DNA of 64,000 nucleotides from Naegleria gruberi. Lineage: Eukaryota. Numbering within the stretch: position 1 is the stretch's first letter; each line of letters starts with the position of its first letter. Below are positions 41,483 through 64,000 of this stretch, one piece after another. Under the pieces are notes generated by a model, which saw nothing but the letters and a program-made list of their open reading frames with translations, did no database searches and was not told the DNA's origin. The position numbers were made by a program, and so were the translations under genes. The DNA lies in the NCBI GenBank assembly GCA_000004985.1, contig GG738850.1. One strand, 5' to 3'.

Positions 41483-43255
41483 ATGCTTAGCCAAGCAGCT
41501 TTGAAAAAAACAATGCAACTCAATTACCTTTTGTTTGGAAAGCAAAGTGGTGTTGACTTGCATCCACTCAAAGTTGTTACCAGCGATGGTTTCATTCAGT
41601 TTAATTCTGCATCACTTTCTAATAACAATGCTCATCATTCGAATAGACTATTCTTCTCTTCACTCAACAAAACCAGAATAATAGTTTCAATTCTAATAGT
41701 TGTCATCCTCTTTATTCTTCTGAGACACTTCACCTCTCCAAAACATCAACAACATGCCATCTTTCTAGAGTTTGCCAAATTATTAACAAATCCTTCAAAC
41801 TCAATTGACCAAACCAGAGAAGGAACCTACGCTTGGTACAGGTACCAGTTAGAAAAGAACAATAGATTGGGTAACACACTCTTCAAAGACCCAATCATGA
41901 CAAGATTAGGTTTCCAGTCAACCTCCACAACAAGTAAAGAGTTGTTTCACTACTTTCGAACATTTAAAACCAAAGAAAAGTGTTCGAAACAACATACATG
42001 TAAAATTTATGCAGACAAGACAGCTGGTGAGTTCTTAGAAGAAGGTGTACCATTGGATGCTGTTCTTCATCATTGTTTCTATGGAGAACCTTTCTTTTTG
42101 AATTCACTATTGGATGAAGCATCAATTGTGAAGGAATTTCAACATGAAATTGTGGATTCGAATGGAAAATTGAAACGAAACGAAATGTTTACTCATGCGC
42201 AGGATATTCTATTACATTCCCATAGGATGGACGAAAGCCAAGGCGAGAAAATGTGGAGAGGAATGAGAAGATTGTCACTTCTCATGTGCAGTGAAGCTGT
42301 CGTTGTGAATCAACTTGAAAAATTATCACAAAATCCAAATTCACTCCTTCCTCAAATGTCAATGGAAAAATTTGCCCAGTCAACTGCAGATATCTCAATT
42401 TGTTTTCTTTCTACATGCTCTGTTTGGGTTAATTATCAATATAATTACATGTCTCTTTCAAATTCTGATAAATTTGGTACGAAACCCTTCTCCAAAAATA
42501 AGGGAATTTGCTCCTTCATTTCCAATTGTGATAGAGGAGGAACAGAACTCAAACAACGTTATGAACTATTGCAATATCTTTCCAAGTACATTCCAGTGAA
42601 ACAATTTGGCAAATGTGGCAAGAATTCACAAGAAGGAAAAGGCGGGAAACCTTTCGAATTGGAAAATAATTGTCGATTCTATTATGCAGCTGAGAATTCC
42701 ATTACAAAAGATTATGTCACTGAGAAATTCTTTGAAGGAATCAAAGCACTGGAAAATGGAGCTAGAATGATCATGTTGTATCGTGGGGCTCCAAATTTGA
42801 GAATTGATTTCGGATTTCCAAAGAGTTTGTTTATTGACCAATCGGATTTCCAATCTGTTGATGAATTGGGAAGATTTTTGAAGAAACTAAATGAAGATGA
42901 TCAAGCATTTGAGGAATATTTCAATAGAATGATTATTCAGGAAAGAAGCAAAGTCGATAGTGCACTTGCTGGTTTCGAATATCGTTTAGGTTCGAATATT
43001 CCATGTAGAATTTGTAAGATAATAGGACAAATGAAATTGGCAAGATATCTATTATTCAAAATTGGATTCCAATCAACAAATAGACCAAAAATTAATTTGA
43101 AAGAATGGAATAATTTCAAATATCAAAGATTTTCATCTTTTTCAGCCGAACGATTGAAAATTCTTGATGAAATTTATTATTATGGATACGAAATCTTTCA
43201 TAAGGAGAATAACAATCAGAATGAGTTTGGTCGTGGTTGGAACTTTGATAATTAA
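41483..43255 (+). CDS. Alpha-1,3-fucosyltransferase (GT10 family), type II membrane protein.
   Basis: TM IIVSILIVVILFILL. GT10 motifs ...CSFISNCDRGGTELKQRYELLQYLSKYIPVKQFGKCG... and RFYYAAENSITKDYVTEKFFEG (compare FUT YKFYLAFENS...DYITEK). Confidence 0.75.
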   Translation: MLSQAALKKTMQLNYLLFGKQSGVDLHPLKVVTSDGFIQFNSASLSNNNAHHSNRLFFSSLNKTRIIVSILIVVILFILLRHFTSPKHQQHAIFLEFAKLLTNPSNSIDQTREGTYAWYRYQLEKNNRLGNTLFKDPIMTRLGFQSTSTTSKELFHYFRTFKTKEKCSKQHTCKIYADKTAGEFLEEGVPLDAVLHHCFYGEPFFLNSLLDEASIVKEFQHEIVDSNGKLKRNEMFTHAQDILLHSHRMDESQGEKMWRGMRRLSLLMCSEAVVVNQLEKLSQNPNSLLPQMSMEKFAQSTADISICFLSTCSVWVNYQYNYMSLSNSDKFGTKPFSKNKGICSFISNCDRGGTELKQRYELLQYLSKYIPVKQFGKCGKNSQEGKGGKPFELENNCRFYYAAENSITKDYVTEKFFEGIKALENGARMIMLYRGAPNLRIDFGFPKSLFIDQSDFQSVDELGRFLKKLNEDDQAFEEYFNRMIIQERSKVDSALAGFEYRLGSNIPCRICKIIGQMKLARYLLFKIGFQSTNRPKINLKEWNNFKYQRFSSFSAERLKILDEIYYYGYEIFHKENNNQNEFGRGWNFDN

Positions 43256-43301: not shown

Positions 43302-45011
43302 TCAGATTACGTTTGCTTTCGAAATTTGTGTTACACTTTCTAATCTTGTCAATGTTTGAAAATCAACTCGTCCCTCTCTTTCTCTCCACTCCTCCAATAC
43401 TATTCGAATCTTTTCATTCGACTGCCTCAATCGCTCTAAAACATCCTTCAAAGTGAGAAGAGTTTGAATTTGAACCTCCTCAAACAATTCATCAGATAAT
43501 TCATCATCACACATGGCACTATTAATTTTCAGCAAGATATCCTCCCTAATTGCATTCATATTTGGTAAATTCAATTCGTACACTCCTCCAGGTGTCAAGT
43601 AACAATTGATTATTTCCAGAGCCACTAATTTCCTCTTCTTAAAGTTATTGGCCTGTTTAAACTTGGAAATGTCCTTGTATACGAGAACTCCTTCAGGACA
43701 GAATGATCTCCTCGAATATTCCAATAACATTTCACAAGTTTCATTCTTATTGAGAATGAACTCCAATTCATTACTAAATATTTCAACTTTTCTCAAATCT
43801 TTTGCAATGGCATACAGAACTGGTAAGGTCACCGTTATGAAAATCTCAATCGTACAATACGAAACCATAACCAATCCTGATGGAAACACATGATCAATCA
43901 TTTTGAAGAAATCCATAGCCAAACACGTATAAATAATAGCTGCACTAATTTGAAGAACCATTGTAACAATAGTCTCCACTTTGATATAGTAGGTATCCTT
44001 TTCAGTTTTCAACAACCAAAAGAACGCAAACAGTTCAATTGCTATGTAAATCACATATAGAATGAGGATGGTTATGGTGGTTGGAAATAATGTGTAACAA
44101 CCTCTTAGGGAGATCATGGCAGCTTCTTGCATGATAAATCTTGCATTTGAAAAGAAAGATTCCTCAATCACTGCAAAAACAAACCAAATCAAAGTTTGAA
44201 TTCCGTAAATGGTAATAAATATAAAAATTGACCACTTTTTTGAATGTACTATATAATGTGCCTTTCTAAGTAAGAGTTCTCTCTTGTCAATATTATTGTG
44301 TAAATCCAAATATTGTTTAAATTCCTTCAGTTTCTGTTGAGGTACTGAGATTAGTCCAGTTGGACTTGTAGGTGAACTTGTGAGCGAAGATGGACTAGTT
44401 GGAGATCGTGATAGACTTTCCACCGAAGGTATACTATTCAATTCTTCATTATTCCTATTCGATTCCTTACAATTTTCATCCAGTTCATTTTTTCTCAATT
44501 CATTTTCCTTAAAATTTTGAGCTTTAAACCAATTTACTCTCCACTGTGTATAAACTCTCACATTTCTCAAAGTATTTGGTACTGTATAACTTGCTGGCAT
44601 TACAAAAAACATTAAACTATAAACTAAACATGGAAACAAATCTCTGCCAATCATGTATCTCAACGAATAAACACTCACTATTGAAATACTCGATGCAATT
44701 GTGAAATACATGCCTGCTGTTGATCGTGCAATGATGTGAGTCGAATTTCTCTTCCATATGAACCCAAAAATTGAAAGAGTCACTAAGCAAATGTAAAATA
44801 CGAAAGCAAACCCTGCAAGAATGGGAACCGAAATGGCATCCGGGCATTGGTTAGGAATGTTTCGTTGTCGAGGGACAAGAGTAAGGGAAAGTAACCATGA
44901 TTCGCATTCTGTAGCATTGCTGTTGTTTATAATTGTATTATTGGTTTGTTGCCTTGTAGAATTGATTTCGTATATTGTTTCTAATAATTTGCTTGCATGT
45001 TGATTCATCAT
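43302..45011 (-). CDS. Seven-transmembrane receptor-like protein with C-terminal RGS domain (7TM-RGS).
   Basis: Seven hydrophobic segments (ISVPILAGFAFVFYICLVTLSIFGFIW ... GLVMVSYCTIEIFITVTLPVLYAIA). Then CEMLLEYSRRSFCPEGVLVYKDISKFKQ...LVALEIINCYLTPGGVYELNL...ELFEEVQIQTLLTLKDVLERLRQS (RGS). Confidence 0.7.
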   Translation of the reverse strand: MMNQHASKLLETIYEINSTRQQTNNTIINNSNATECESWLLSLTLVPRQRNIPNQCPDAISVPILAGFAFVFYICLVTLSIFGFIWKRNSTHIIARSTAGMYFTIASSISIVSVYSLRYMIGRDLFPCLVYSLMFFVMPASYTVPNTLRNVRVYTQWRVNWFKAQNFKENELRKNELDENCKESNRNNEELNSIPSVESLSRSPTSPSSLTSSPTSPTGLISVPQQKLKEFKQYLDLHNNIDKRELLLRKAHYIVHSKKWSIFIFITIYGIQTLIWFVFAVIEESFFSNARFIMQEAAMISLRGCYTLFPTTITILILYVIYIAIELFAFFWLLKTEKDTYYIKVETIVTMVLQISAAIIYTCLAMDFFKMIDHVFPSGLVMVSYCTIEIFITVTLPVLYAIAKDLRKVEIFSNELEFILNKNETCEMLLEYSRRSFCPEGVLVYKDISKFKQANNFKKRKLVALEIINCYLTPGGVYELNLPNMNAIREDILLKINSAMCDDELSDELFEEVQIQTLLTLKDVLERLRQSNEKIRIVLEEWREREGRVDFQTLTRLESVTQISKANVI

Positions 45012-47742: not shown

Positions 47743-50352
47743 ATGTTTGGAAATGAAACCGTTTCGAGTATGGAGGACATGAATGGCAGCTCAACCAACA
47801 AACCAACAGTCGCACAAGCATCATCATCAACTGATAAGAAGTTTTCAATTATTGTAACGAATGAGGAATCAAAAACCTCAACAGATGTGAATCTAATGGT
47901 GGATCCGCCACTTTATGAAATTGCAAATGAGAATAACCATCTACATACTACCAATATTGTCAACTCGAGAAGACCCTCTAATAACAGCACTACCTCATCA
48001 ATGATACATCCCATTCATGCCAAACCACATCCAATCTATGGCAGAAGGGATACCATCTTTACCTTTGATGAGGTAATCACTCATTTGCCAGAAGGAACTA
48101 ATCAAACTAATCAGCAGCAGCAACTGCCAAGCATTGAAGTGAATGAAAAGCAAAATCCCACACCAGGCAGCAACAATAGTGGGAATTTATTATTTGGATA
48201 TTGTGGGAGAGGAGTGAGGATTAGTCATGTACTATTAATTCTGTTCATCATTCAAGGATTGGTTGGATTGGTTCCATCCCTCATTCTCATGTACACGAGT
48301 GGAAATAGTATTTTGGAAAGAGTTTCTAAATTCCAGGCACAACAAACTCAAACCTATGTGAATTTTGAGATTAGTCGAATTGTTAATACTTCACAATTAG
48401 TCATTCAACATATCAGATTTGAGTTGGAGAATGGATTTACACTTTCAAACCTCACAGAAATGACTTTATTTGCAACTTATTTGAGGAATCTTTATGTGAA
48501 TAGATCTCCACTCACGGCTGTTCAATTTGGCATGTTTATGGATAATTATGTTGGTACATTAGATATTCCTCCAATTTATCCACCAGTAATTGAATATTTG
48601 AATGGGACTGGAGATTTATTGTATCACTATAGATTAGAAGAAGATAGCATCGAAAATCCCTTGCAAGATCGATACCTTTACAATGTTGAACCTTTCAGAT
48701 TCAAACCATCCCATAGACCTTGGTATGTGCCATTTACTCTCCCAAATGCAACAGAAAGAAGATGGTCAGAAATTTATGTTTCCACATTTGGACAGCTCTC
48801 TATCAATACTGCAATGCCTGTCTTTGTAAAGGAGAATATTACAGCTGCAGTATTGTCAGGGAAACCAATTGATCAGTTTAATTTTCAAATATGTGATTGT
48901 AACCACCCTGATCACTTGTATGGAGTATTTGGAGCTCTGTTCGCACTCAAAGGACTCAATTCATTCCTCAATGACACTTCAAGACCTTACAGCTTTATTA
49001 GTTACAGTTTTATTATGCAAAGAAATGGATCTGTCATTGCATCGAGTAGACATAACACGACCACATCCAGTAGCATTCTAGAAGAAGAGGAAGAGATTGA
49101 TCAAGTTGCAGCCTATATTATCAATCTAGGTCTATTCAAAAATAGTACAATTCCAGGTGAATGCACTTTCAAATTTAGAGGAAAGAATGTAGCCATAACA
49201 CCAGTCTATGATAATTATGGACTTTCTTGGGCTATTGTCATTGGATCTAAGGATGCAGATATTTTAAAAGAGCTACTATCGAGTGGAATGACTTCAGTTG
49301 TGGTTTTTATTGTCATTTTAGTTGCAGGATCCTTAGCATTATTTGTGACTGTACAGTTGTTTGCTCAGCCATTAAATAACGTGCACAGAAAGCTTTCTAA
49401 AATTTTGAGTGACAAGAATCTATCAAAGGATTTGTCAAATCCAAAAATTACAACTGCTGGACTGATTTTCTTTGATATTGGAGAAATGGAAAATGGAATT
49501 AATTCGCTCAAGAGAGGAGTTTCAGCATTTTCTAAATTTATTTCACCAACAATAATGAAAAAAGTTATTAGAAATGAACATTATTTGGATGTTGGAATGA
49601 TAATTCAAAACATGTCAATTTTGGTTTTAAGTATTAGTAATTTCTCTCAATTAGCAGAACAAACTGATATTTCTACATTTGTTTCATTAATGACTGATTA
49701 TTTTGGAAGTTTGACAAAGGTGATGGAAGATCATCGTGGATTAATTGACATGATTACAGGCGAAAGATTGCAAGTAGTGTGGAATGACTCATCCATGCCT
49801 GTTGAAGAACATGAAGTGAGAGCATGTAAAGCTGCAATGGAAGCTATAGAAGTTGTTGAAGAATTGAATAACACCTGGATAAAGGAGAAACATTTGGAGA
49901 TGGATTTTTCAGTGTGTATGAGTATTTCGAGTGGAAATATGATGTATGGTAGCATTGGAAGTGAGCATCGATTGAATTTCACAGCCATGGGAGATGATGT
50001 CAATATAGCAGTAAAGTTGGCAAATCTCAATCCACATTATGAGGCCGATATTCTCATTACTGAAAATACCTATCAACATGTAAAGAATGAATTTGTTTGT
50101 TACTTTGTGGACTATATAATATTGAATGGAAAGGAAAGTCCAACCATGATCTACAGTTTGGAATGTGAAAGAAGTGTTGCTAGTGACCTTCAGGTAAAAG
50201 TAGCAACAGATTTGGAATTGGCACGTAACTATTGGTTCCAAAACAATTATAGAGCCATGTACGATATTTGTGAAAGATTGAGTCTCATTTCTCATTCAAA
50301 AATAATTAATAATTTATTGTTAAAAGCAAAAAGAAAAATTACACATAATTAA
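47743..50352 (+). CDS. Receptor-type class III cyclase-homology-domain protein (TM, ~330-aa extracellular sensor region, TM, then cyclase homology domain). Catalytic residues look partly non-canonical.
   Basis: TMs VLLILFIIQGLVGLVPSLILMY and VVVFIVILVAGSLALFVTVQLF. CHD is ...MSILVLSISNFSQLAEQTDISTFVSLMTDYFGSLTKVMEDHRGLIDMITGERLQVVW...FSVCMSISSGNMMYGSIGSEHRLNFTAMGDDVNIAVKLANL...ILITENTY. By eye, metal Asp1 is replaced by Ser, Asp2 by Glu, and the transition-state Arg by Lys; the Asn is kept. Confidence 0.65.
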   Translation: MFGNETVSSMEDMNGSSTNKPTVAQASSSTDKKFSIIVTNEESKTSTDVNLMVDPPLYEIANENNHLHTTNIVNSRRPSNNSTTSSMIHPIHAKPHPIYGRRDTIFTFDEVITHLPEGTNQTNQQQQLPSIEVNEKQNPTPGSNNSGNLLFGYCGRGVRISHVLLILFIIQGLVGLVPSLILMYTSGNSILERVSKFQAQQTQTYVNFEISRIVNTSQLVIQHIRFELENGFTLSNLTEMTLFATYLRNLYVNRSPLTAVQFGMFMDNYVGTLDIPPIYPPVIEYLNGTGDLLYHYRLEEDSIENPLQDRYLYNVEPFRFKPSHRPWYVPFTLPNATERRWSEIYVSTFGQLSINTAMPVFVKENITAAVLSGKPIDQFNFQICDCNHPDHLYGVFGALFALKGLNSFLNDTSRPYSFISYSFIMQRNGSVIASSRHNTTTSSSILEEEEEIDQVAAYIINLGLFKNSTIPGECTFKFRGKNVAITPVYDNYGLSWAIVIGSKDADILKELLSSGMTSVVVFIVILVAGSLALFVTVQLFAQPLNNVHRKLSKILSDKNLSKDLSNPKITTAGLIFFDIGEMENGINSLKRGVSAFSKFISPTIMKKVIRNEHYLDVGMIIQNMSILVLSISNFSQLAEQTDISTFVSLMTDYFGSLTKVMEDHRGLIDMITGERLQVVWNDSSMPVEEHEVRACKAAMEAIEVVEELNNTWIKEKHLEMDFSVCMSISSGNMMYGSIGSEHRLNFTAMGDDVNIAVKLANLNPHYEADILITENTYQHVKNEFVCYFVDYIILNGKESPTMIYSLECERSVASDLQVKVATDLELARNYWFQNNYRAMYDICERLSLISHSKIINNLLLKAKRKITHN

Positions 50353-51383
50353 ACCTTATTAGATTTGGAAAGTAGTGTTTGATTTTCATGAGATTCTTCC
50401 TCAGAACCATACGATAACTCAGAGTCATCTGTGTGATGGTTATTGTTACTGGTACTGTATTGAGAAGATACAGGACGACGAGCCATTTGAATATCCATCT
50501 TTCCAATTCTATTTCTTTCTTGTTCAAATTTCTTCTCAGCACGATATGCATTCACATTATCAACAATGGCCTTGATGAGCAGGGAAATCAACATGATAGC
50601 AATAATGGGTCCAAACATTGTAACCATAGCAACTGGAACATTAGGATTATGAATGGTTGTCTTGCAATATTGGAAAATCATATTGGTTGCAGTGAATCCA
50701 GGAGTAAATGTTTGCATACTTTTCAGTTCAGCACCATTCTTGAATAGAATTGTTGTTTCAGGACCTTCGGAACTTGATTTAGCTGATCCACCTCCAAAAG
50801 TTTTGACATTTGAAAGTAAACTTGTTGGATAAATGACTGAAACTGAAATGTCCTTAATTACTTGAGCAGGATCATTGCCTACAGACCATAGGAATTTTGT
50901 TGAATTTTTAAACGAGAAGAAAGGTCCTCTAATCGAATATTTGTATTCGATTGTAAAAATTTGCATAGTATCAACTTGTTTTGAAAAATCTATCTGAATG
51001 TAGTGATTCTTGCTGTTTGTTGTCGATTTATACACGTCAACATCAACTATTTTGTTACTTGTTGTTGAGACTATTATTGCCGAAACTTGTTCCACATTAT
51101 TTCCAAATGGCATACCCACAGGCAGATTTCTAGTAATTGTCTTGGTTTTACTATCAAAAATATAAGAAACTCTTTCTGTTACTTTCGCAACACACAACAA
51201 ATCACTATTCAATTTAATTTCGGATTCAAATTTTGTTATTGAATAATCTTGTTGTGTAGAATCTTGTACGAAAAGTAAAATAATTACTAGTATAATACAA
51301 AGAGAGAGAAAACCTCTTGTTCTTCCAATGATCCGATCATCATATTTTGAAAAATGTCGTCCCCTGATGATGATTGTAGACAT
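50349..51383 (-). CDS. Hypothetical type I membrane protein (signal/anchor, ~250-aa ectodomain, TM, acidic/S-rich tail).
   Basis: 344-aa ORF. FLSLCIILVIILLFV near the N-terminus and VAMVTMFGPIIAIMLISLLIKAI near the C-terminus. Convergent with the cyclase-like gene, overlapping it by 4 bp. Confidence 0.5.
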   Translation of the reverse strand: MSTIIIRGRHFSKYDDRIIGRTRGFLSLCIILVIILLFVQDSTQQDYSITKFESEIKLNSDLLCVAKVTERVSYIFDSKTKTITRNLPVGMPFGNNVEQVSAIIVSTTSNKIVDVDVYKSTTNSKNHYIQIDFSKQVDTMQIFTIEYKYSIRGPFFSFKNSTKFLWSVGNDPAQVIKDISVSVIYPTSLLSNVKTFGGGSAKSSSEGPETTILFKNGAELKSMQTFTPGFTATNMIFQYCKTTIHNPNVPVAMVTMFGPIIAIMLISLLIKAIVDNVNAYRAEKKFEQERNRIGKMDIQMARRPVSSQYSTSNNNHHTDDSELSYGSEEESHENQTLLSKSNKV

Positions 51384-53101: not shown

Positions 53102-54586
53102 TTGGAAATGATGAGAACACCATCATCTCCACCGACCAACAGCAACTCACCACAACAAGCTAGTATTCTTCTCAACAACAATATTTCTACAAATGTTTCC
53201 TCTTCGAATAAGAAAGTTACTATTTCATCATCAGCAGAGCCAATAGCAATGAACCAATCACAAGTTAATCTTGCCAATCCGAGTGAAAGTGGCAAGTCAG
53301 GAAGTTCGTTTAGTCAAAGTAAGATTACATTTCGTACATGTTGTGGTGTAATTGAGCTGACTTCTATGAAGTTGGCTTGTTTATTTGGAATGTTAGTCAC
53401 TGTTATTGGATTATTAGTTTTGGCTGGTGTTGCAGTTGCAGCCTTTATTACTGCAACTTCCAAGTCGACTGAAATTTTAATTTCTGTTGGCAGAGTTACT
53501 TCACAATTCGAAGGTGCTAATGCCATAATTGTCAGATATGTTTTCGCAGGAACAGCTGAAACATATTCAACAACTTTGGCTACTTATAAGAAATCCTATC
53601 TTGCTCTTCAACAAAATTTGACAAACATTCTGGCAAATCTTAATGATCCTCAAATAGAGACAATTTTCAATTCCACAGCCATAACTGCTGTAAATAATGT
53701 GGATTCCCTAAACACTATGATGATGTATATGGCTGGTGGAGTAACTAACACTCAGCGATCTGATGCAATTGAAAAACTCAATAGTGAAGTTTACAAAAAT
53801 TATTTTACTACTTTCCGTTCAGGTTTGGATGAATTAGTGACCTATGTGCAAGAAAAGGAACAGGTAAAAGATCAGAATATTTTGGCAATCACATTGGTGC
53901 AGCTCATTATTATTGTACTTTCATTATTTGTCATTTTGCCTATCATTATATTTGTGTTTACATATGCCATTAATCGTGACTCGTTATATTTGGAAAAGAT
54001 TCGTCGTGCTAATGCAGTCATGTTGATGGATACAATTGAGGATGAAGGTTTGAGAGCTCTTTTCAAGGTTCATTGTGAAAAGGAAAAGTCGAGTGAAAAT
54101 TTCCTACTCCTTGAAAAGATTCAATATTATCGTTCTTTGTGTGAACGTTCTATAGATTTACAAATGAGATTATTTGGTCAGGATGCCGCTATAAGTGATG
54201 CTCTGAGTGATATTTCGGCAGATTCATCTCACTCCTCAAAGAAAAAGAAGGAATCTCCATTAGAAAGAGAATATAACGAATTGGAGGCAAAGAAGTATGA
54301 AGTTGCTTTTGAAATATTTACTGAATTTTTGGAAGTAACTGGTGATATGGCTGTCAATGTTTCAAAGGTTCTTACAGATTTTGTGAAGGATAAACTTGAC
54401 AAGTTCAATGACAAACAAATTGATACCCTGCCAGAGGACATGTTTGATATTTTAGGAAAAGAAACATGTCTTGTCATGATGGATACTCACCATAGATTCA
54501 AACAATCTCTTGCATTCCAACGTGAAATGAAGATTGACAAGATAAAGGTAGACCAGATAAAAAAGAAAAGGAATATAGAATTTTAA
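53102..54586 (+). CDS. Two-TM sensor-like protein with C-terminal RGS domain (TM, ~170-aa extracellular helical region, TM, RGS).
   Basis: TM1 LACLFGMLVTVIGLLVLAGVAVAAFITA. TM2 ILAITLVQLIIIVLSLFVILPIIIFVFTYAI. RGS is LMDTIEDEGLRALFKVHCEKEKSSENFLLLEKIQYYRSL ... YEVAFEIFTEFLEVTGDMAVNVSKVLTDFV...LVMMDTHHRFKQS. Confidence 0.65.
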   Translation: MEMMRTPSSPPTNSNSPQQASILLNNNISTNVSSSNKKVTISSSAEPIAMNQSQVNLANPSESGKSGSSFSQSKITFRTCCGVIELTSMKLACLFGMLVTVIGLLVLAGVAVAAFITATSKSTEILISVGRVTSQFEGANAIIVRYVFAGTAETYSTTLATYKKSYLALQQNLTNILANLNDPQIETIFNSTAITAVNNVDSLNTMMMYMAGGVTNTQRSDAIEKLNSEVYKNYFTTFRSGLDELVTYVQEKEQVKDQNILAITLVQLIIIVLSLFVILPIIIFVFTYAINRDSLYLEKIRRANAVMLMDTIEDEGLRALFKVHCEKEKSSENFLLLEKIQYYRSLCERSIDLQMRLFGQDAAISDALSDISADSSHSSKKKKESPLEREYNELEAKKYEVAFEIFTEFLEVTGDMAVNVSKVLTDFVKDKLDKFNDKQIDTLPEDMFDILGKETCLVMMDTHHRFKQSLAFQREMKIDKIKVDQIKKKRNIEF

Positions 54587-54645: not shown

Positions 54646-55536
54646 TTAATTAATTCTAGTTTCATTATGAAGTTCTCTCAGTGCATCCCACCAATTTGTA
54701 AATGGTGTATCCATCTTGTCAGCATTGAATTGAGGAATATTATCCTTGATTATTTTTTGCATATGATTAAACATGATTTGATTTCCAAGAGGAGACATGT
54801 GAAGCCCATCACTGAAAGGATGTCCAGTTGTCCACTCATGCATATCAGTCCACAAATCACACAAGTATACATTTCCTCTTTGGTCATTATTATTTCCACT
54901 TGTAACAATTTCTCTAACAGCTTGAGCATACATGGCAGTGTGCTTGTTATCTCTGAAACCTCCTTGAGGTCCAGAAGTTTGATTCCATTGAGTTGCATTC
55001 ATTGGTGGTGGAGTGGTGAGAATAATGTCAATTCTTGATGACACCATTTTCTTCTTCATAATTGAAATCATTTCCTTAATATTCTCAGTGTATCTCTCCA
55101 CAGGAACGTGTTGTTGTGTTGGAGAGTCTGCGAAACAAGCATCATTAGCTCCCATAGTAAAGATGACCAAAACTGGTTGATTCCAACTCTGGGTTGGTTG
55201 TAAAAATGTCTGTTCAAAATCATTCTCCATAATATTCACCAAAAGGTCAGTATTCCATCCAGAAAATCCACGATTAATAATATCTACCATATTAATATAC
55301 CATCCCAAGAATAAATGTTGAAAACCGTTCGGTAATGATGAAAATTGAGTAATCGAATCACCAACAATATACAACATTGGACGATCCCTAACAAAATGAT
55401 AATCCTTTGATGTTACTATTGTTGATGGTTTGACCTTTCCGATGTGAATCGCACCAATGCATGGTTGAAAATTCATCATCATGATGATCATCAACAGTGC
55501 TGTTATTACTAACATAAAACTCTTCAGTTGTTGCAT
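54646..55536 (-). CDS. Secreted SGNH/GDSL hydrolase, IAH1-like esterase.
   Basis: Signal peptide. Block I LYIVGDSITQFS. Block II RGFSGWNT. Block III FTMGANDA. Block V DGLHMSPLGNQIM. Confidence 0.8.
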   Translation of the reverse strand: MQQLKSFMLVITALLMIIMMMNFQPCIGAIHIGKVKPSTIVTSKDYHFVRDRPMLYIVGDSITQFSSLPNGFQHLFLGWYINMVDIINRGFSGWNTDLLVNIMENDFEQTFLQPTQSWNQPVLVIFTMGANDACFADSPTQQHVPVERYTENIKEMISIMKKKMVSSRIDIILTTPPPMNATQWNQTSGPQGGFRDNKHTAMYAQAVREIVTSGNNNDQRGNVYLCDLWTDMHEWTTGHPFSDGLHMSPLGNQIMFNHMQKIIKDNIPQFNADKMDTPFTNWWDALRELHNETRIN

Positions 55537-59395: not shown

Positions 59396-62066
59396 ATGAA
59401 AGAAACGACACAAGTCATTCCTGTCAGATCCAAGCACGATGCAGAAGATAATACTCAATCTATCGAAGATACTTCAAGCGATAATTTTCAACAAGAAGAC
59501 GCAAGAAAGGTTGCATTCTTTGGTTCAATTAAAATGTGGTTGATTCTAATTATTTCTGTAATTGTATTATTGACAGTTTTTATTCTGTCAGCAATTTGGT
59601 TGAGTAGTTTCATTCCTTCAGTTGTTGAATATAGCAAGGAACTAAGAGATTTTGAATTTGATAATATTGTTGCATTTGTCAAACAAACAATTAGAGAAGT
59701 AAAAATGACAAGTGAAACTGGTAAACATTTAATGATGAAAACACTTGATTTTTCGAATAGAGATCAGATAGAAGTGTTGATTTATCAGTTTTTGAAACAG
59801 CAGTGGACCTATCTTAAAGGTTTAGTTGTTACAAATCACATTGGTGACAATGAAGGAAGGTAAATACTTTACAACAGTTTTAATCTTTACAATATTGCAT
59901 TAATTTCTTTAGACAATATGGAATTATGGATTGGGGAGGAAAACCTACATTATTCAACATCACCACAAAAGATCAACAACTTTATTATTGTAATAATTTT
60001 GATGAACTTGATTATTGTAATAGAAGTTCAACTCCAGACATTCAATTAGGATTTTTTGATTTGACAATTTTGATTAATGCTGGAAATGCACATCCAGGAA
60101 AACCAACCATCACTAATAGTTTCATAGATGCATCACAACCACAGTATACTTTCATTACAATGGTTAATTCTATTGAGTTACCTCAACCAGATTTGAAAGG
60201 AAACAAATTTAAATATTACTTAGGAACAGATTTGTCTGCTGAGACTATTTCTCAATATTTGGCACATGTAACGTTGAAATTGAGTGGTTCTAAGAGTTTT
60301 ATTATTGAAATGGCAACTCAATACATTATTGCAAGTAAGTTTTATAATGAACAAGGTAAAAAGTTTACAATAATTGAAAGATGACAATTCTAATGCAAGG
60401 GTGGCAGTTGTTAATTCAGATGGATCTGTCACAAGACAAACCTATCTCAAAATTGATAATGATGAAAGAGTTTCGTCAATCGCCAAGGTATTGGCTTCGG
60501 AATTGGGAACAGAATTGGATACTATTGGATGTGGAAACAAATCATTAATTACATCTGCAACTGATTACATTTCAGTTTATAGATTATGCACAGATACTGA
60601 TGTTGATTGGTAAGTTAGCAAATCAATTTCGAACTCTATAATAATTATTCGAAATAGGTTGTTTGTGTTGGCAGTTCCTCAATGGAATTATATTAGTTCA
60701 ATTGTTATTGCTGTTGTTTGTGCTACTCTTGGCGCATGTATTATAATTTCTGCAGGTGTTATAACATCTGTCATTATTTCAGTCAAATTAGTGAAACCAT
60801 TTTACAACTTGATTGATTTATTCGAAAGTGTTTCTCATATGGATTTGGATAATTTAGTAATTAATGATTCCAAATTTACAGAAGTTAAACATTTACAAAA
60901 TCATTTCAAAACCATGACAGACAGAATCAAACTTTACAGAGCTTTCATTCCATCGCATTTACTTTCTCAATTAGATCAAGGAGGAGATCAAGTTGACGCC
61001 AAAAAGAAAGCTCATGAAAACGATTCCATTTCTATGGCTTCCTCTCATAAATCCTCTCAGAGATCTTCGAGATTAGACTCCAAACAATCTAGCTTGAGTA
61101 GAAGTCATGCCTCTAGTTCACATCGAAGATATTCGAATGATTTGGATATTTTCTCACTTCATTTGGATCGAAAGAAATTATCCATTGTTGCAATTCATAT
61201 TGAAGGGTTGAATAGATTATTCTCTGAAATATCAGCAGGAGACTGTGTTGATTTGTTGAAAGATTTCTTTGATCATTTGGGATTAGTTTGTCGAACAAGT
61301 AATGGTTATTTGGGAAATTTTGAAAATGATTTAATTTCAATTTCATTCAATGCAAGTTCAAATCAATCGAAACATTCAGAAAAAGCAGCTGCTGCATGTG
61401 TTCAATTAATGGAAAAGTTGAACACAACCAAATCAAAGAAATGGCCAAATCAATTTAAAAAGAAACCTCACTTGATTGAAATTGTTACATTCAGATTTGC
61501 AATTTGTGTTCAAGAATCATTATGTGGAAATTTAGGATCGAATGATTTTAAGAATTTCACAGTTATTTCAAGTGCCAAATTCAATTTGGAATCCATGTTG
61601 GATGTTGCATCAAAATTGAATTTGAATATTGTATTATCTGATAGAGTATTTGCAAATTTAGAGGAACATTATCAAATGAGATATGTTTATACGAAAGAAT
61701 TAATTCCAGATTCACATTATTCATCTCCATTTATTCAACACAAAGAAAATGAAAGAGCACAAATTGAACCAACACATATTTATGAATTGGGTGAAAGCTT
61801 AAATGTTGGAATGGATGGTAAGTTTACAACATTTAACTTTACAAATTTGATTACGTTCTTTTTTATTAGAATGGATGTATGAATTACAAGAAAAGGAAAA
61901 GAAAGCAAAATGGACCAAATACAATCAAGCTTGCAAACTCTTCTTCTCAAATCAATTCGAAGAAGCTAGAGAATTATTCCGAGAATTTCATGAACAAAAC
62001 AATGATGTGGCAGCTGAATTGATGATTAAAAAATGTTCAACTACAACACCTATTAGTGAATTGTAG
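59396..62066 (+). CDS. Second receptor-type cyclase-homology-domain protein, 5 exons: 59396..59859, 59913..60334, 60381..60609, 60658..61817, 61870..62066. TM, extracellular region, TM, then CHD.
   Basis: Four introns of 53, 46, 48 and 52 bp with GTAAAT/GTAAGT donors and AG acceptors; all phases close across five ORF-track segments. TM MWLILIISVIVLLTVFILSAIWL and IVIAVVCATLGACIIISAGVITSVIISV. CHD is LSIVAIHIEGLNRLFSEISAGDCVDLLKDFFDHLGLVCRTSNGYLGNFENDLISISF...IEIVTFRFAICVQESLCGNLGSNDFKNFTVISSAKFNLESMLDVASKLNLNIVLSDRVF. Metal Asp1 is replaced by His and the transition-state Arg is absent, by eye. Confidence 0.65.
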
Positions 62067-62202
62067 TTTCTTTTACGTTATGGGAAGAGACACAAATTAC
62101 TGTTACAAGTGGGGAGGAGGGGTAGAAATCTTACTTTTTATTTAGGGGTGTTGGCCAGAAAATTACGAAATAATTGGGGGGGTAAACAACATTATTTATT
62201 TA

Positions 62203-62382
62203 ATTATTTCTTCTTTCGTGGTCTACCAGGCTTTCTCTTTACTGCTTCTTCAACTTGAGATTTCATTGGTTCTTTGAATTGTGATTTCTTTGGTCTACCA
62301 CGTTTCTTTTTCTTTAATGGTTCCTCTTCTTGTTCCAATTCTTTCTCTTGTTCCAATTCCTTCTCTTGTTCTTGATCATAAT
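62203..62382 (-). CDS. AT-hook protein, C-terminal fragment; the remainder lies in the assembly gap.
   Basis: Minus-strand translation is ...YDQEQEKELEQEKELEQEEEPLKKKKRGRPKKSQFKEPMKSQVEEAVKRKPGRPRKKK*, with two RGRP AT-hook cores. Confidence 0.5.
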
Positions 62383-63004
62383 NNNNNNNNNNNNNNNNNN
62401 NNNNNNNNNNNNNNNNNNNNNNNNNNNNNNNNNNNNNNNNNNNNNNNNNNNNNNNNNNNNNNNNNNNNNNNNNNNNNNNNNNNNNNNNNNNNNNNNNNNN
62501 NNNNNNNNNNNNNNNNNNNNNNNNNNNNNNNNNNNNNNNNNNNNNNNNNNNNNNNNNNNNNNNNNNNNNNNNNNNNNNNNNNNNNNNNNNNNNNNNNNNN
62601 NNNNNNNNNNNNNNNNNNNNNNNNNNNNNNNNNNNNNNNNNNNNNNNNNNNNNNNNNNNNNNNNNNNNNNNNNNNNNNNNNNNNNNNNNNNNNNNNNNNN
62701 NNNNNNNNNNNNNNNNNNNNNNNNNNNNNNNNNNNNNNNNNNNNNNNNNNNNNNNNNNNNNNNNNNNNNNNNNNNNNNNNNNNNNNNNNNNNNNNNNNNN
62801 NNNNNNNNNNNNNNNNNNNNNNNNNNNNNNNNNNNNNNNNNNNNNNNNNNNNNNNNNNNNNNNNNNNNNNNNNNNNNNNNNNNNNNNNNNNNNNNNNNNN
62901 NNNNNNNNNNNNNNNNNNNNNNNNNNNNNNNNNNNNNNNNNNNNNNNNNNNNNNNNNNNNNNNNNNNNNNNNNNNNNNNNNNNNNNNNNNNNNNNNNNNN
63001 NNNN
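62383..63004. other. Assembly gap (622 N).
   Basis: Run of n characters. Confidence 1.
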
Positions 63005-63462
63005 AATATGCTTCAGATTGAACTTTCCTGTTTCTCGGTTGCACTTTAGGTTTGGAAATACATACTCTTTGATTATTCAATGAAAAACTACTTAACCATT
63101 CATTATGATATCTTACAAACTTGTTCTATACATTTAGGAGGAGCTACCCTGAAAGGATGACATCTTTAAATCAAATATTCATCGAACTATAAGGCACAGG
63201 TTTGAAAGACAAATATTGAAAGTTAGAAAAACGAGTAAAAATGAAAATTTTATAATTTAAAATCGGGGAACAGACCAAATGATGGATAACGAACGTTGTT
63301 CCTCCTTGATCGACTAAGTAATTATCGAGAAGGAAGGTTTCTAAATATTTGCAAAATTTCATTCACATCCTTCAATAATAATTTTCAAACCGAAAAATTT
63401 AAAAATAGAATGGATTAATATCAATAATTTTGGAGATGTGGATTATTATCTAGTATTTTAAT

Positions 63463-63499
63463 GATGGAAGTGGAGGTGCCATAGGCACCCACTTCCATC
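63463..63499. repeat. Subtelomeric 37-bp near-perfect palindrome/hairpin GATGGAAGTGGAGGTGCCATAGGCACCCACTTCCATC.
   Basis: Arms GATGGAAGTGG(A)GGTGCC and GGCACCCACTTCCATC are reverse complements apart from a 1-nt bulge; loop is ATA. Confidence 0.6.
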
Positions 63500-63604
63500 A
63501 AGTGGAGAAACTACATTGAAGGAGGATCTGTTAAAAAAAATACAAGAACATCATGCCTCCTTCATCTTCAAGTATTGCTCCTTCTTCGTCATCTATATCA
63601 TCAA

Positions 63605-64000
63605 TTAGGGTTTGGGTTGGGTTTGGGTTTGGGTTTGGGTTTGGGTTTGGGTTTGGGTTTGGGTTTGGGTTTGGGTTTGGGTTTGGGTTTGGGTTTGGGT
63701 TTGGGTTTGGGTTTGGGTTTGGGTTTGGGTTTGGGTTTGGGTTTGGGTTTGGGTTTGGGTTTGGGTTTGGGTTTGGGTTTGGGTTTGGGTTTGGGTTTGG
63801 GTTTGGGTTTGGGTTTGGGTTTGGGTTTGGGTTTGGGTTTGGGTTTGGGTTTGGGTTTGGGTTTGGGTTTGGGTTTGGGTTTGGGTTTGGGTTTGGGTTT
63901 GGGTTTGGGTTTGGGTTTGGGTTTGGGTTTGGGTTGGGTTTGGGTTTGGGTTTGGGTTTGGGTTTGGGTTTGGGTTTGGGTTTGGGTTTGGGTTTGGGTT
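63605..64000 (+). repeat. Telomeric repeat array (TTTGGG)n. First unit is TTAGGG, with two TTGGG variants. The G-rich strand runs 5'->3' to the window end, so this is a right chromosome end.
   Basis: About 65 tandem 6-mers from 63605 to the last base. Confidence 0.85.

What the first reader, a model, noticed from the sequence alone, without database searches (positions are those of the whole stretch)
53102..54586. Bacterial-chemoreceptor-like topology (TM, ~170-aa extracytoplasmic helical domain, TM) fused to an RGS domain
The extracellular region VGRVTSQFEGANAIIVRYVFAGTAETYSTTLATYKKSYLALQQNLTNILANLNDPQIETIFNSTAITAVNNVDSLNTMMMYMAGGVTNTQRSDAIEKLNSEVYKNYFTTFRSGLDELVTYVQEKEQ is helical-looking between two TM segments. 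This is the 4HB_MCP/TarH-type layout, with a eukaryotic RGS output instead of a HAMP/MCP output. A direct ligand-sensor to G-alpha GAP fusion would be a compact and unusual signalling device.
Basis: inference. Interest (0 to 1): 0.6.

Follow-up and report, generated by a model that had tools for sequence, protein, structure and literature searches.

The report
Bacterial-type sensor fused to RGS
This Naegleria gruberi gene encodes a two-pass membrane protein whose outside-facing four-helix bundle is related to a widespread, unnamed bacterial periplasmic sensor domain and whose cytoplasmic end is an RGS (G-protein off-switch) domain, which suggests a receptor that turns G-protein signalling off directly.

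Summary
The ORF (ATG at 53108/53111, stop at 54586) is identical to an annotated N. gruberi "RGS domain-containing protein". Its layout is: disordered N-terminus, conserved Cys-Cys motif, TM1, helical outer domain of about 140 aa (not about 170), TM2, invariant-length helical linker, RGS domain.

The link is more than fold resemblance. A profile of the outer domain alone hits bacterial sensor kinases, GGDEF/EAL proteins and cyclases at E 1e-10 to 1e-6 among 1.84 billion proteins. hhalign gives 99.1% probability (E 1.5e-18), and the search works in reverse. That bacterial domain occurs at 513 or more genome loci across many phyla and has no Pfam, NCBIfam or PDB sequence match. Pfam 4HB_MCP/TarH membership is not met.

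The RGS assignment holds through family Pfam hits (to 7.8e-12), the fold, and conserved Gα-contact residues.

All named members of the fusion family are Naegleria or Willaertia. Ligand-controlled GAP activity is inferred, not shown. I rate it a new variant of the known receptor-GAP idea (7TM-RGS).

The parts
53108..54586 (+). Complete single-exon CDS (492 codons from the first ATG; the annotated protein starts at the second ATG, 53111; stop TAA at 54584-54586)
   Evidence: ORF list. 100% identity to N. gruberi P0001, 491 aa. The family HMM matches only this ORF in the window.
53108..53320 (+). Residues 1-71: low-complexity S/T/N/P-rich cytoplasmic N-terminus, predicted disordered
   Evidence: pLDDT <50 for residues 1-71. 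Length and sequence vary among relatives; mean pairwise identity is 24%.
53321..53368 (+). Residues 72-87: conserved juxtamembrane motif K-I-T-F-R-T-C-C-G-V-I-E-L just before TM1 (candidate palmitoylation site, inferred)
   Evidence: C79 and G80 are invariant and T77, C78, E83 and K88 nearly invariant among 21 sequences. Mean pairwise identity is 60%. C78 is present in 61 and C79 in 53 family members. AF2 gives a low-confidence beta hairpin.
53369..53455 (+). Residues 88-116: TM1, an uncleaved membrane anchor
   Evidence: Hydropathy. AF2 models one helix from TM1 into helix 1 in the ECD model. Bacterial relatives have a TM helix at the same position.
53456..53878 (+). Residues 117-257: extracytoplasmic four-helix-bundle sensor-like domain (helices about 120-147, 153-177, 181-210, 215-257). 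Shared conserved residues: G128, E135, Y160, A220, S226, Y229, F236, G239
53879..53968 (+). Residues 258-287: TM2, with invariant Pro278
   Evidence: Hydropathy. P278 is invariant. TM2 lies inside the single helix 227-311 of the full-length model.
53969..54043 (+). Residues 288-312: helical linker AINRDSLYLEKIRRANAVMLMDTIEDE, the most conserved segment, of invariant length
   Evidence: Mean pairwise identity is 67%, the highest of all regions. The Pro278 to Asp308 spacing is 31 residues in 73/73 members. The linker is helical and continuous with TM2.
54044..54532 (+). Residues 313-475: RGS domain. Putative G-alpha-contact residues: S328, E330, N331, N417, D459, R463
   Evidence: Pfam RGS is marginal here but reaches 7.8e-12 in relatives. 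Foldseek hits RGS8/16/17/4/1 and SNX13-RGS with target TM-score 0.6-0.78. Motif alignments to RGS3 and RGS8. Residue counts in the family.
54176..54256 (+). Residues 357-383: disordered insert inside the RGS domain, acidic and Ser-rich then Lys-rich (SDALSDISADSSHSSKKKK); candidate phosphorylation cluster (inferred)
   Evidence: pLDDT <50 for residues 359-379. Length is highly variable: N331 to N417 spans 51-142 residues in the family. The insert splits the Pfam RGS match.
54533..54583 (+). Residues 476-492: basic C-terminal tail (KIDKIKVDQIKKKRNIEF)
   Evidence: Conserved K-rich tail ending in D/E-F in most members. Low pLDDT for residues 478-492.

Best explanation
The gene encodes a receptor-type GTPase-activating protein for heterotrimeric G-alpha subunits. 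Both termini are cytoplasmic. An extracytoplasmic four-helix bundle of about 140 aa sits between two TM helices. This bundle descends from a bacterial periplasmic sensor domain family that in bacteria feeds histidine kinases, c-di-GMP enzymes and cyclases.

Helix 4 of the bundle, TM2 and a 25-residue linker form one continuous helix of invariant length that leads directly into an RGS domain. The RGS domain keeps the residues RGS proteins use to bind G-alpha switch regions.

The proposed mechanism is inferred. A ligand binds the bundle, probably in a homodimer as in bacterial four-helix sensors. This displaces helix 4 and TM2, and the shift is passed along the rigid helix. It then changes the availability or orientation of the RGS domain at the membrane, or its phosphorylation and internalisation through the Ser-rich insert. 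That sets how fast G-alpha-GTP is switched off. Naegleria G-alpha subunits exchange nucleotide spontaneously ('self-activating'), so GAP control can be the regulated step, as with plant 7TM-RGS proteins.

Shown here: architecture, fold, homology of both domains, family distribution, invariant linker length. Inferred: extracellular ligand binding, GAP activity, and coupling between the two.
For: Identity and family: searches give 82 related proteins. All named ones come from Naegleria gruberi, N. fowleri, N. lovaniensis or Willaertia magna, and 73/82 carry the RGS region.

Topology: two TM segments; AF2 models.

Bacterial partners: they have the same TM, ~140 aa, TM layout and signalling outputs. 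One lies in a bacterial two-component locus.

RGS.

Coupling: the Pro278 to Asp308 spacing is 31 residues in 73/73 members, while ECD loops and the RGS insert vary freely. The linker is the most conserved segment and the ECD the least conserved structured one, 67% against 27%, as expected if paralogues recognise different ligands.

Physiological frame: N. fowleri G-alpha subunits are self-activating and RGS domains of 7TM-RGS proteins accelerate their GTPase (PMC9283941).
Against: No ligand, GAP activity, localisation or expression was tested.

The window protein's own Pfam RGS score is just under the gathering threshold. Its own score against the bacterial sensor profile is only 20.4 bits, so both assignments rest on the family.

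The best Foldseek RGS hit is SNX13, whose RGS domain is not a classical GAP.

Low ECD conservation could reflect relaxed constraint rather than ligand diversification.

The positive-inside rule is not decisive here.

AF2 tends to draw long straight helices, so the continuous helix 227-311 is not independent proof of rigidity.
Confidence: 0.6

Rival explanations
1. The protein is a constitutive membrane-anchored GAP. The outer helical bundle serves only as a structural or dimerisation module, or as a glycosylated spacer, and senses nothing. The protein keeps an RGS domain at the membrane.
For: The ECD is the least conserved structured region, at 27% mean identity. No ligand is known for the bacterial family either, because it has no Pfam, NCBIfam or PDB annotation.
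Against: The residues that are conserved in the ECD are polar or aromatic positions that are invariant in the bacterial sensor family (E135, Y160, S226, Y229). The spacing from helix 4 through TM2 to the RGS domain is strictly invariant, which a passive anchor would not need. There are many paralogues with divergent ECDs and near-identical cytoplasmic parts.
Confidence: 0.2
2. The C-terminal domain is an RGS-like scaffold without GAP activity, as in SNX13/14/25, GRKs or axin. The protein would signal or traffic through another partner.
For: The Pfam score is below the gathering cut-off for this protein. A disordered insert of 27 aa or more lies inside the domain. The top Foldseek hit is the SNX13 RGS domain. 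The PDB sequence search gives only E about 0.2 to RGS3 and RGS8.
Against: The counterparts of RGS4 S85/E87/N88, N128 and D163/R167 are conserved: N331 in 53, N417 in 54, D459 in 56 and R463 in 55 members. Relatives reach Pfam RGS E 7.8e-12. R4-type RGS-G-alpha complex structures fill the Foldseek list.
Confidence: 0.1
3. The resemblance of the outer domain to bacterial sensors is convergence of a generic four-helix bundle, or helical compositional bias, and not common descent.
Against: Profile hits have low bias and run end-to-end in register over all four helices. hhalign gives E 1.5e-18. Detection is reciprocal. Invariant residues coincide. All distant hits inspected are TM-flanked domains of signalling proteins.
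Confidence: 0.05
4. The first hydrophobic segment is a cleaved signal peptide, or translation starts at Met86. The mature protein would then be single-pass with an N-terminal ectodomain.
For: Met86-Lys87 directly precede the hydrophobic stretch.
Against: The 16 residues upstream (RTCCGVVEL) are conserved in frame across species and paralogues. The hydrophobic run is about 29 aa, far longer than a signal-peptide core. AF2 joins it to helix 1 as one helix in the ECD model. Bacterial homologues use a true TM1 at this position.
Confidence: 0.02

Closest known systems
Seven-transmembrane RGS proteins (Arabidopsis AtRGS1; the 28-member N. fowleri 7TM-RGS family, PMC9283941)
   Same: These are membrane receptors with a C-terminal cytoplasmic RGS domain that act as receptor-GAPs on self-activating G-alpha subunits. 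They occur in the same genus, and a multi-TM RGS gene lies 8 kb away in this window (43302-45011).
   Different: Here the membrane part has two TM helices flanking a bacterial-type four-helix sensor, not a 7TM bundle. TM2 connects to the RGS domain by a single helix of fixed length.
Bacterial periplasmic four-helix-bundle sensors (Tar/Tsr TarH, 4HB_MCP, NarX/NarQ, TorS, McpN, PcaY, HK9 3va9)
   Different: There is no significant match to Pfam 4HB_MCP_1, TarH, CHASE3, HBM or NIT models. There is no HAMP or MCP signalling domain. The output is a eukaryotic RGS domain.
Unnamed bacterial periplasmic sensor family with the motif LDEVLTMSARMAAxTGDxxWExRY ... LLxSxEYxxxKxxYxxGM, found here
   Same: The homology is detectable by sequence (hhalign 99.1%, E 1.5e-18). 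The families share E135, Y160, A220, S226, Y229 and G239, an aromatic residue at position 236 (F in the amoeba family, Y in the bacterial one), and the same TM flanks.
   Different: Bacterial members feed HisKA/HATPase_c, PAS, GGDEF/EAL, class III cyclase, HAMP or STAS outputs, and often carry two tandem copies between the TM helices. They lack the Cys-Cys motif and have fewer glycosylation sequons, a mean of 0.9 against 3.1. The amoeba domains are very divergent, about 16% identity.
Other bacterial extracellular sensors captured by eukaryotes (Cache in a Naegleria adenylate cyclase and in animal alpha2-delta; CHASE in plant cytokinin receptors)
   Same: A bacterial extracytoplasmic sensor domain appears in a eukaryotic membrane signalling protein, attributed to horizontal transfer (PMC4822843).
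   Different: Those cases keep bacterial-type outputs (kinase, cyclase) or lose signalling. Here the output is the eukaryote-type RGS domain.

Membership tests
RGS domain (Pfam PF00615) | Sequence match to the RGS profile above the gathering score | tested here: inconclusive
   The window protein scores 22.9 bits against a cut-off of 23.9, E 1.2e-4. 35/54 relatives match at E<=1e-3, best 7.8e-12. Several relatives carry precomputed PF00615. The feature is met for the family and marginal for this member because of the insert.
RGS domain (Pfam PF00615) | All-helical RGS fold | tested here: met
   The AF2 C-terminal domain has pLDDT about 80-93 outside the insert. Foldseek hits RGS8, RGS16, RGS17, RGS4, RGS1 and SNX13-RGS with probability 1.00 and target TM-score 0.6-0.78.
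RGS domain (Pfam PF00615) | G-alpha switch-contact residues (RGS4 S85/E87/N88, N128, D163/R167) | tested here: met
   HMMER alignments to RGS3 and RGS8 place SxEN (328-331) and AVNxS (N417) on the corresponding motifs. The D459/R463 correspondence was made by eye. Family counts are N331 53, N417 54, D459 56, R463 55.
RGS domain (Pfam PF00615) | GAP activity on G-alpha-GTP | not testable with these tools
   This needs single-turnover GTPase assays. Only N. fowleri 7TM-RGS domains have been tested (PMC9283941).
4HB_MCP_1 / TarH (Pfam PF12729 / PF02203) | Significant match to the Pfam profiles | tested here: not met
   The window protein gives no hit at E<=1. One of 20 family ECDs hits 4HB_MCP_1 at E 0.12. 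Bacterial relatives give 2/24 at E 0.058.
4HB_MCP_1 / TarH (Pfam PF12729 / PF02203) | Periplasmic or extracytoplasmic up-down four-helix bundle flanked by TM1 and TM2, with helices 1 and 4 continuous with the TM helices | tested here: met
4HB_MCP_1 / TarH (Pfam PF12729 / PF02203) | Homodimer with ligand binding at or near the dimer interface | not tested
   No multimer prediction or binding assay was possible.
Methyl-accepting chemotaxis protein (chemoreceptor) | Cytoplasmic HAMP and MCPsignal domains | tested here: not met
   Pfam finds only RGS in the window protein and its family.
Unnamed bacterial 'DEVLTMSA' periplasmic sensor family | Profile-profile and reciprocal profile-sequence homology over the whole domain | tested here: met
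   hhalign 99.1%, E 1.5e-18 over 132 columns. Forward E 1e-10 to 1e-6. Reverse E 4e-14 to 6e-5 for RGS-bearing amoeba proteins, but only 20.4 bits for the window protein itself.
Unnamed bacterial 'DEVLTMSA' periplasmic sensor family | Invariant core residues (bacterial E21, Y42, A98, S104, Y107, aromatic 114, G117) | tested here: met
   Window E135, Y160, A220, S226, Y229, F236 and G239 are conserved at 65-100% in the amoeba family. The bacterial D20, T24, R41, N76 and E83 are not kept.
7TM-RGS receptor-GAPs (AtRGS1 type) | Seven transmembrane helices N-terminal to the RGS domain | tested here: not met
   Only two hydrophobic segments are present, and AF2 shows two TM helices.
7TM-RGS receptor-GAPs (AtRGS1 type) | C-terminal cytoplasmic RGS domain tethered to an integral membrane sensor | tested here: met

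The most novel reading that the evidence does not exclude
An ancestor of Naegleria and Willaertia captured a bacterial periplasmic sensor domain by horizontal transfer. It wired the domain, through a rigid helix of invariant length and without HAMP or any other adaptor, directly to a eukaryotic RGS domain. This created and then expanded a second class of receptor-GAPs, alongside 7TM-RGS, that lets extracellular chemicals switch off self-activating G-alpha subunits. The bacterial parent is itself a large, uncharacterised sensor family with no Pfam, NCBIfam or PDB sequence match.
Probability: 0.45. Interest if true: 0.7.

Novelty: new variant of a known kind. Interest (0 to 1): 0.6.

Why it matters
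Receptor-GAPs, which are membrane sensors that end G-protein signalling rather than start it, are so far known as 7TM-RGS proteins in plants and protists. This family would show the same logic built from a bacterial two-TM sensor joined to a eukaryotic G-protein regulator.

The fixed, adaptor-free helix between sensor and RGS gives a simple system for asking how a transmembrane helix movement controls a monomeric output domain.

The family is present in the pathogen N. fowleri, where G-protein pathways are being explored as drug targets (PMC9283941).

The work also exposes a widespread bacterial periplasmic sensor domain, at 513 or more loci across Planctomycetota, Cyanobacteria, Deltaproteobacteria, Acidobacteriota and other phyla, that the Pfam and NCBIfam copies searched here do not describe.

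Tried and rejected
(1) Signal peptide or single-pass topology: rejected.

(2) Pfam 4HB_MCP_1, TarH, CHASE3 and related models: no significant hits for the amoeba domains. The bacterial relatives give only sub-threshold hints (CHASE3 0.0025, Cytochrom_B562 6.6e-5, each 2/24).

(3) PDB sequence searches with the full-length, ECD and bacterial-domain profiles found nothing meaningful. The hits were GPCR TM segments, tropomyosin and a designed HalluTIM protein. The structurally closest chain, 3va9, is not detectably related by sequence.

(4) NCBIfam has no model for the sensor region. There is only a faint GlnX hit (E 0.01) on one bacterial protein.

(5) I looked for other output domains on the amoeba sensor and found only RGS. 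The long members (1144-1302 aa) carry no extra Pfam domain.

(6) I looked for further copies in the window and found none.

(7) The afdb50 fold library was unavailable.

(8) Anantharaman et al. 2011 (Gene 475:63) and Bradford et al. 2013, the papers most likely to have described TM-RGS architectures, are not held. I could not check whether this architecture was already noted there.

(9) The first search for related loci attempt with the 24-sequence alignment failed for lack of a conserved stretch. A 6-sequence subset worked.

(10) The positive-inside rule was uninformative.
Full report
**What is at the coordinates.** The window is Naegleria gruberi nuclear DNA. The ORF at 53102-54586 (+) translates, from the ATG at 53111, to a protein 100% identical to the annotated 491-aa "RGS domain-containing protein [Naegleria gruberi]" (P0001). 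The TTG at 53102 only reflects the bacterial start rule of the ORF tool. I number residues from the first ATG (53108; 492 aa). The family HMM matches no other ORF in the window.

**Anatomy.**
- Kyte-Doolittle analysis gives two hydrophobic segments, about 88-116 and about 258-287. The segment between them is about 141 residues, not about 170.
- Residues 1-71 are low-complexity and predicted disordered.
- Residues 72-87 hold a conserved motif, RTCCGV(V/I)EL, directly before TM1.
- After TM2 comes the linker AINRDSLYLEKIRRANAVMLMDT. It is the best-conserved stretch of the protein, at 67% mean pairwise identity among 21 relatives, against 61-62% for the RGS halves and 27% for the outer domain.
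- The RGS region (313-475) is interrupted by a disordered Ser/Asp-rich then Lys-rich insert (357-383).

**Fold of the outer domain.**
- I built an alignment of residues 72-300 from 20 relatives (A2). AlphaFold2 gave mean pLDDT 83.9. The helices are 15-76, 82-107, 110-139 and 144-153 plus 156-228 in model numbering. This is an up-down four-helix bundle whose first helix continues from TM1 and whose last helix continues into TM2.

**Sequence homology to a bacterial sensor family.**
- An HMM of A2 searched against 1.84 billion representative proteins gave 704 hits at E<=1e-3 and 75 at E<=1e-10.
- Beyond the RGS-bearing relatives, the hits are proteins with TM1 (about 10-45), about 140 residues, then TM2 (about 180-215), or with two tandem copies of the domain before a TM2 at about 305-335.
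- Of 60 such proteins scanned, 39 have HATPase_c, 32 HisKA, 14 receiver domains, about 20 PAS domains, 5 GGDEF, 3 EAL, and one each MCPsignal, class III cyclase and SpoIIE.
- One of them (P0098) lies in a Pirellulales genome next to response-regulator and kinase genes with overlapping reading frames.
- hhalign of the amoeba alignment against an alignment of 24 bacterial domains (A5) gives 99.1% probability, E 1.5e-18, over 132 columns.
- In reverse, the bacterial HMM detects RGS-bearing amoeba proteins: N. lovaniensis P0066 at 4e-14, Willaertia magna P0025 at 1e-11, W. magna P0022 at 6e-8 and N. gruberi P0002 at 6e-5. The window protein itself scores only 20.4 bits, so its link runs through its family.
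- The residues best conserved in the amoeba outer domain are E135, Y160, A220, S226, Y229, an aromatic at 236 and G239. These coincide with invariant positions of the bacterial family. By helix position they lie at one level in the membrane-distal half of the bundle, which makes them a candidate ligand site (inference).

**The bacterial family is not described in the libraries searched.** Its periplasmic region has no Pfam hit even at E<=5, no NCBIfam model, and no PDB relative by sequence. It is nonetheless common. A scan of GTDB representative genomes with two peptide patterns reached the 600-match limit, and 513 matches were confirmed. They span Planctomycetota, many Cyanobacteria, Deltaproteobacteria, Acidobacteriota, Nitrospirae, Verrucomicrobia, Bacteroidota and other phyla. 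Formal membership of the amoeba domain in Pfam 4HB_MCP_1 or TarH is not met. The bacterial domains show only sub-threshold hints to CHASE3, 4HB_MCP_1 and cytochrome b562.

**The RGS domain.**
- On the window protein, Pfam RGS is just below the cut-off (22.9 against 23.9 bits) because the insert splits the match.
- Among 54 relatives, 35 match RGS at E<=1e-3 (best 7.8e-12), and no other Pfam domain appears.
- The full-length AF2 model (pLDDT 74; the C-terminal domain is mostly 80-93) hits RGS8, RGS16, RGS17, RGS4, RGS1 and the SNX13 RGS domain in Foldseek (probability 1.00, target TM-score 0.6-0.78). It also hits chemoreceptor ligand-binding domains for the N-terminal half.
- HMMER alignments to RGS3 and RGS8 place "S-x-E-N" (328-331) on the SEEN motif and "A-V-N-x-S" (N417) on the EVNLD motif that carries the catalytically important Asn of RGS4 (the RGS4 numbering is from my own knowledge).
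- Across 82 family members, N331 is kept in 53, N417 in 54, D459 in 56 and R463 in 55.

**Evidence for mechanical coupling.**
- In the full-length model, residues 227-311 form one helix: helix 4 of the bundle, TM2 and the linker. It runs straight into the first RGS helix.
- The distance from the invariant TM2 proline (P278) to the MDT motif (D308) is 31 residues in all 73 sequences that have both anchors. Y229 to P278 is 50 residues in 68 of 75.
- By contrast, the ECD loops vary by tens of residues, and the insert-bearing span N331-N417 ranges from 51 to 142.
- Invariant length and top conservation of the transmission helix, with a fast-diverging outer domain, is the pattern expected for a family of receptors with different ligands and a common output.

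**Orientation.** The RGS domain must be cytoplasmic to meet G-alpha, so with two TM helices the bundle is extracytoplasmic. This agrees with its homology to periplasmic domains. Every one of 76 family ECDs carries at least one N-x-S/T sequon (mean 3.1, against 0.9 in the bacterial domains), and 51/76 have one at the position of N188. The signal-peptide alternative is rejected because the hydrophobic run starts at residue 88, is about 29 aa long and follows a conserved coding motif.

**Biological frame.** N. fowleri G-alpha subunits exchange nucleotide rapidly ("self-activating"). RGS domains of its 28 7TM-RGS proteins accelerate their GTPase. The same genome has 79 further RGS proteins whose architectures are not described in the main text I searched (PMC9283941). 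RGS fused to at least one TM helix has been noted as common across eukaryotes (PMC3971589). Bacterial Cache sensors are known in a Naegleria cyclase and are attributed to horizontal transfer (PMC4822843).

All named members of the present family are from Naegleria gruberi, N. fowleri, N. lovaniensis or Willaertia magna. The sensor domain is broadly bacterial, so acquisition from bacteria in a heterolobosean ancestor is the simplest reading (inference; no tree was built).

**Verdict.**
The relatives are chiefly sensor kinases rather than chemoreceptors, and the domain is not a Pfam 4HB_MCP or TarH member.
- The most likely function is a ligand-regulated receptor-GAP for self-activating G-alpha subunits (confidence about 0.6). 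The main rivals are a constitutive membrane GAP (0.2) and a non-GAP RGS-like scaffold (0.1).
- The protein is already annotated as an RGS protein, and receptor-GAPs are a known concept. I found no description of the bacterial-sensor origin of its outer domain in the literature available to me. The paper most likely to have noted it (Anantharaman et al. 2011) could not be read. I therefore rate it a new variant of a known kind, with interest 0.6.

Noticed in passing
window 43302-45011 (-): A 569-aa protein with a multi-TM N-terminal half (at least 5 strong hydrophobic segments plus weaker ones) and a C-terminal Pfam RGS domain (E 1.7e-6, residues 417-522). It is probably a 7TM-RGS receptor of the class studied in N. 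fowleri, so two different receptor-RGS architectures lie 8 kb apart.
   Followed up: partly
window 47743-50352 (+): An 869-aa protein with TM (156-186), a segment of about 320 aa rich in glycosylation sequons, TM (507-544), then a class III adenylate/guanylate cyclase domain (E 3.4e-9). This is another bacterial-style TM-sensor-TM-output receptor. The fold of its outer domain was not examined.
   Followed up: partly
window 53333-53359 (residues 76-84, RTCCGVIEL): A Cys-Cys pair immediately before TM1, conserved across species and paralogues (C78 in 61 and C79 in 53 family members). It is absent from the bacterial relatives. It is a candidate juxtamembrane palmitoylation site and has not been tested.
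   Followed up: partly
window 54176-54256 (residues 357-383): A disordered insert inside the RGS domain with the pattern SDxxSDxSxxSS followed by KKKK. Its length is highly variable among relatives. It resembles an acidic phosphorylation cluster.
   Followed up: no
bacterial loci L002-L081; proteins P0082-P0165: A widespread bacterial periplasmic four-helix sensor domain (motif LDEVLTMSARMAAxTGDxxWExRY...LLxSxEYxxxKxxYxxGM) occurs as single or tandem copies between two TM helices. It has no Pfam, NCBIfam or PDB sequence match, and 513 or more loci in GTDB genomes carry it. A faint NCBIfam GlnX hit (E 0.01) on P0090 is the only lead to a named family.
   Followed up: partly
window 62001-64000: GC content drops to 0.26 with a strong GC skew (+0.40) and AT skew (-0.27). 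Three overlapping ORFs of more than 230 aa lie on both strands at 62281-63080, which suggests a low-complexity or repeat tract rather than genes.
   Followed up: no
window 50349-51383 (-), 54646-55536 (-), 41483-43255 (+): The flanking genes are a DUF2207 membrane protein, a secreted-looking GDSL lipase and a GT10 fucosyltransferase. They show no evident functional link to the RGS gene, as expected for a eukaryotic locus.
   Followed up: no
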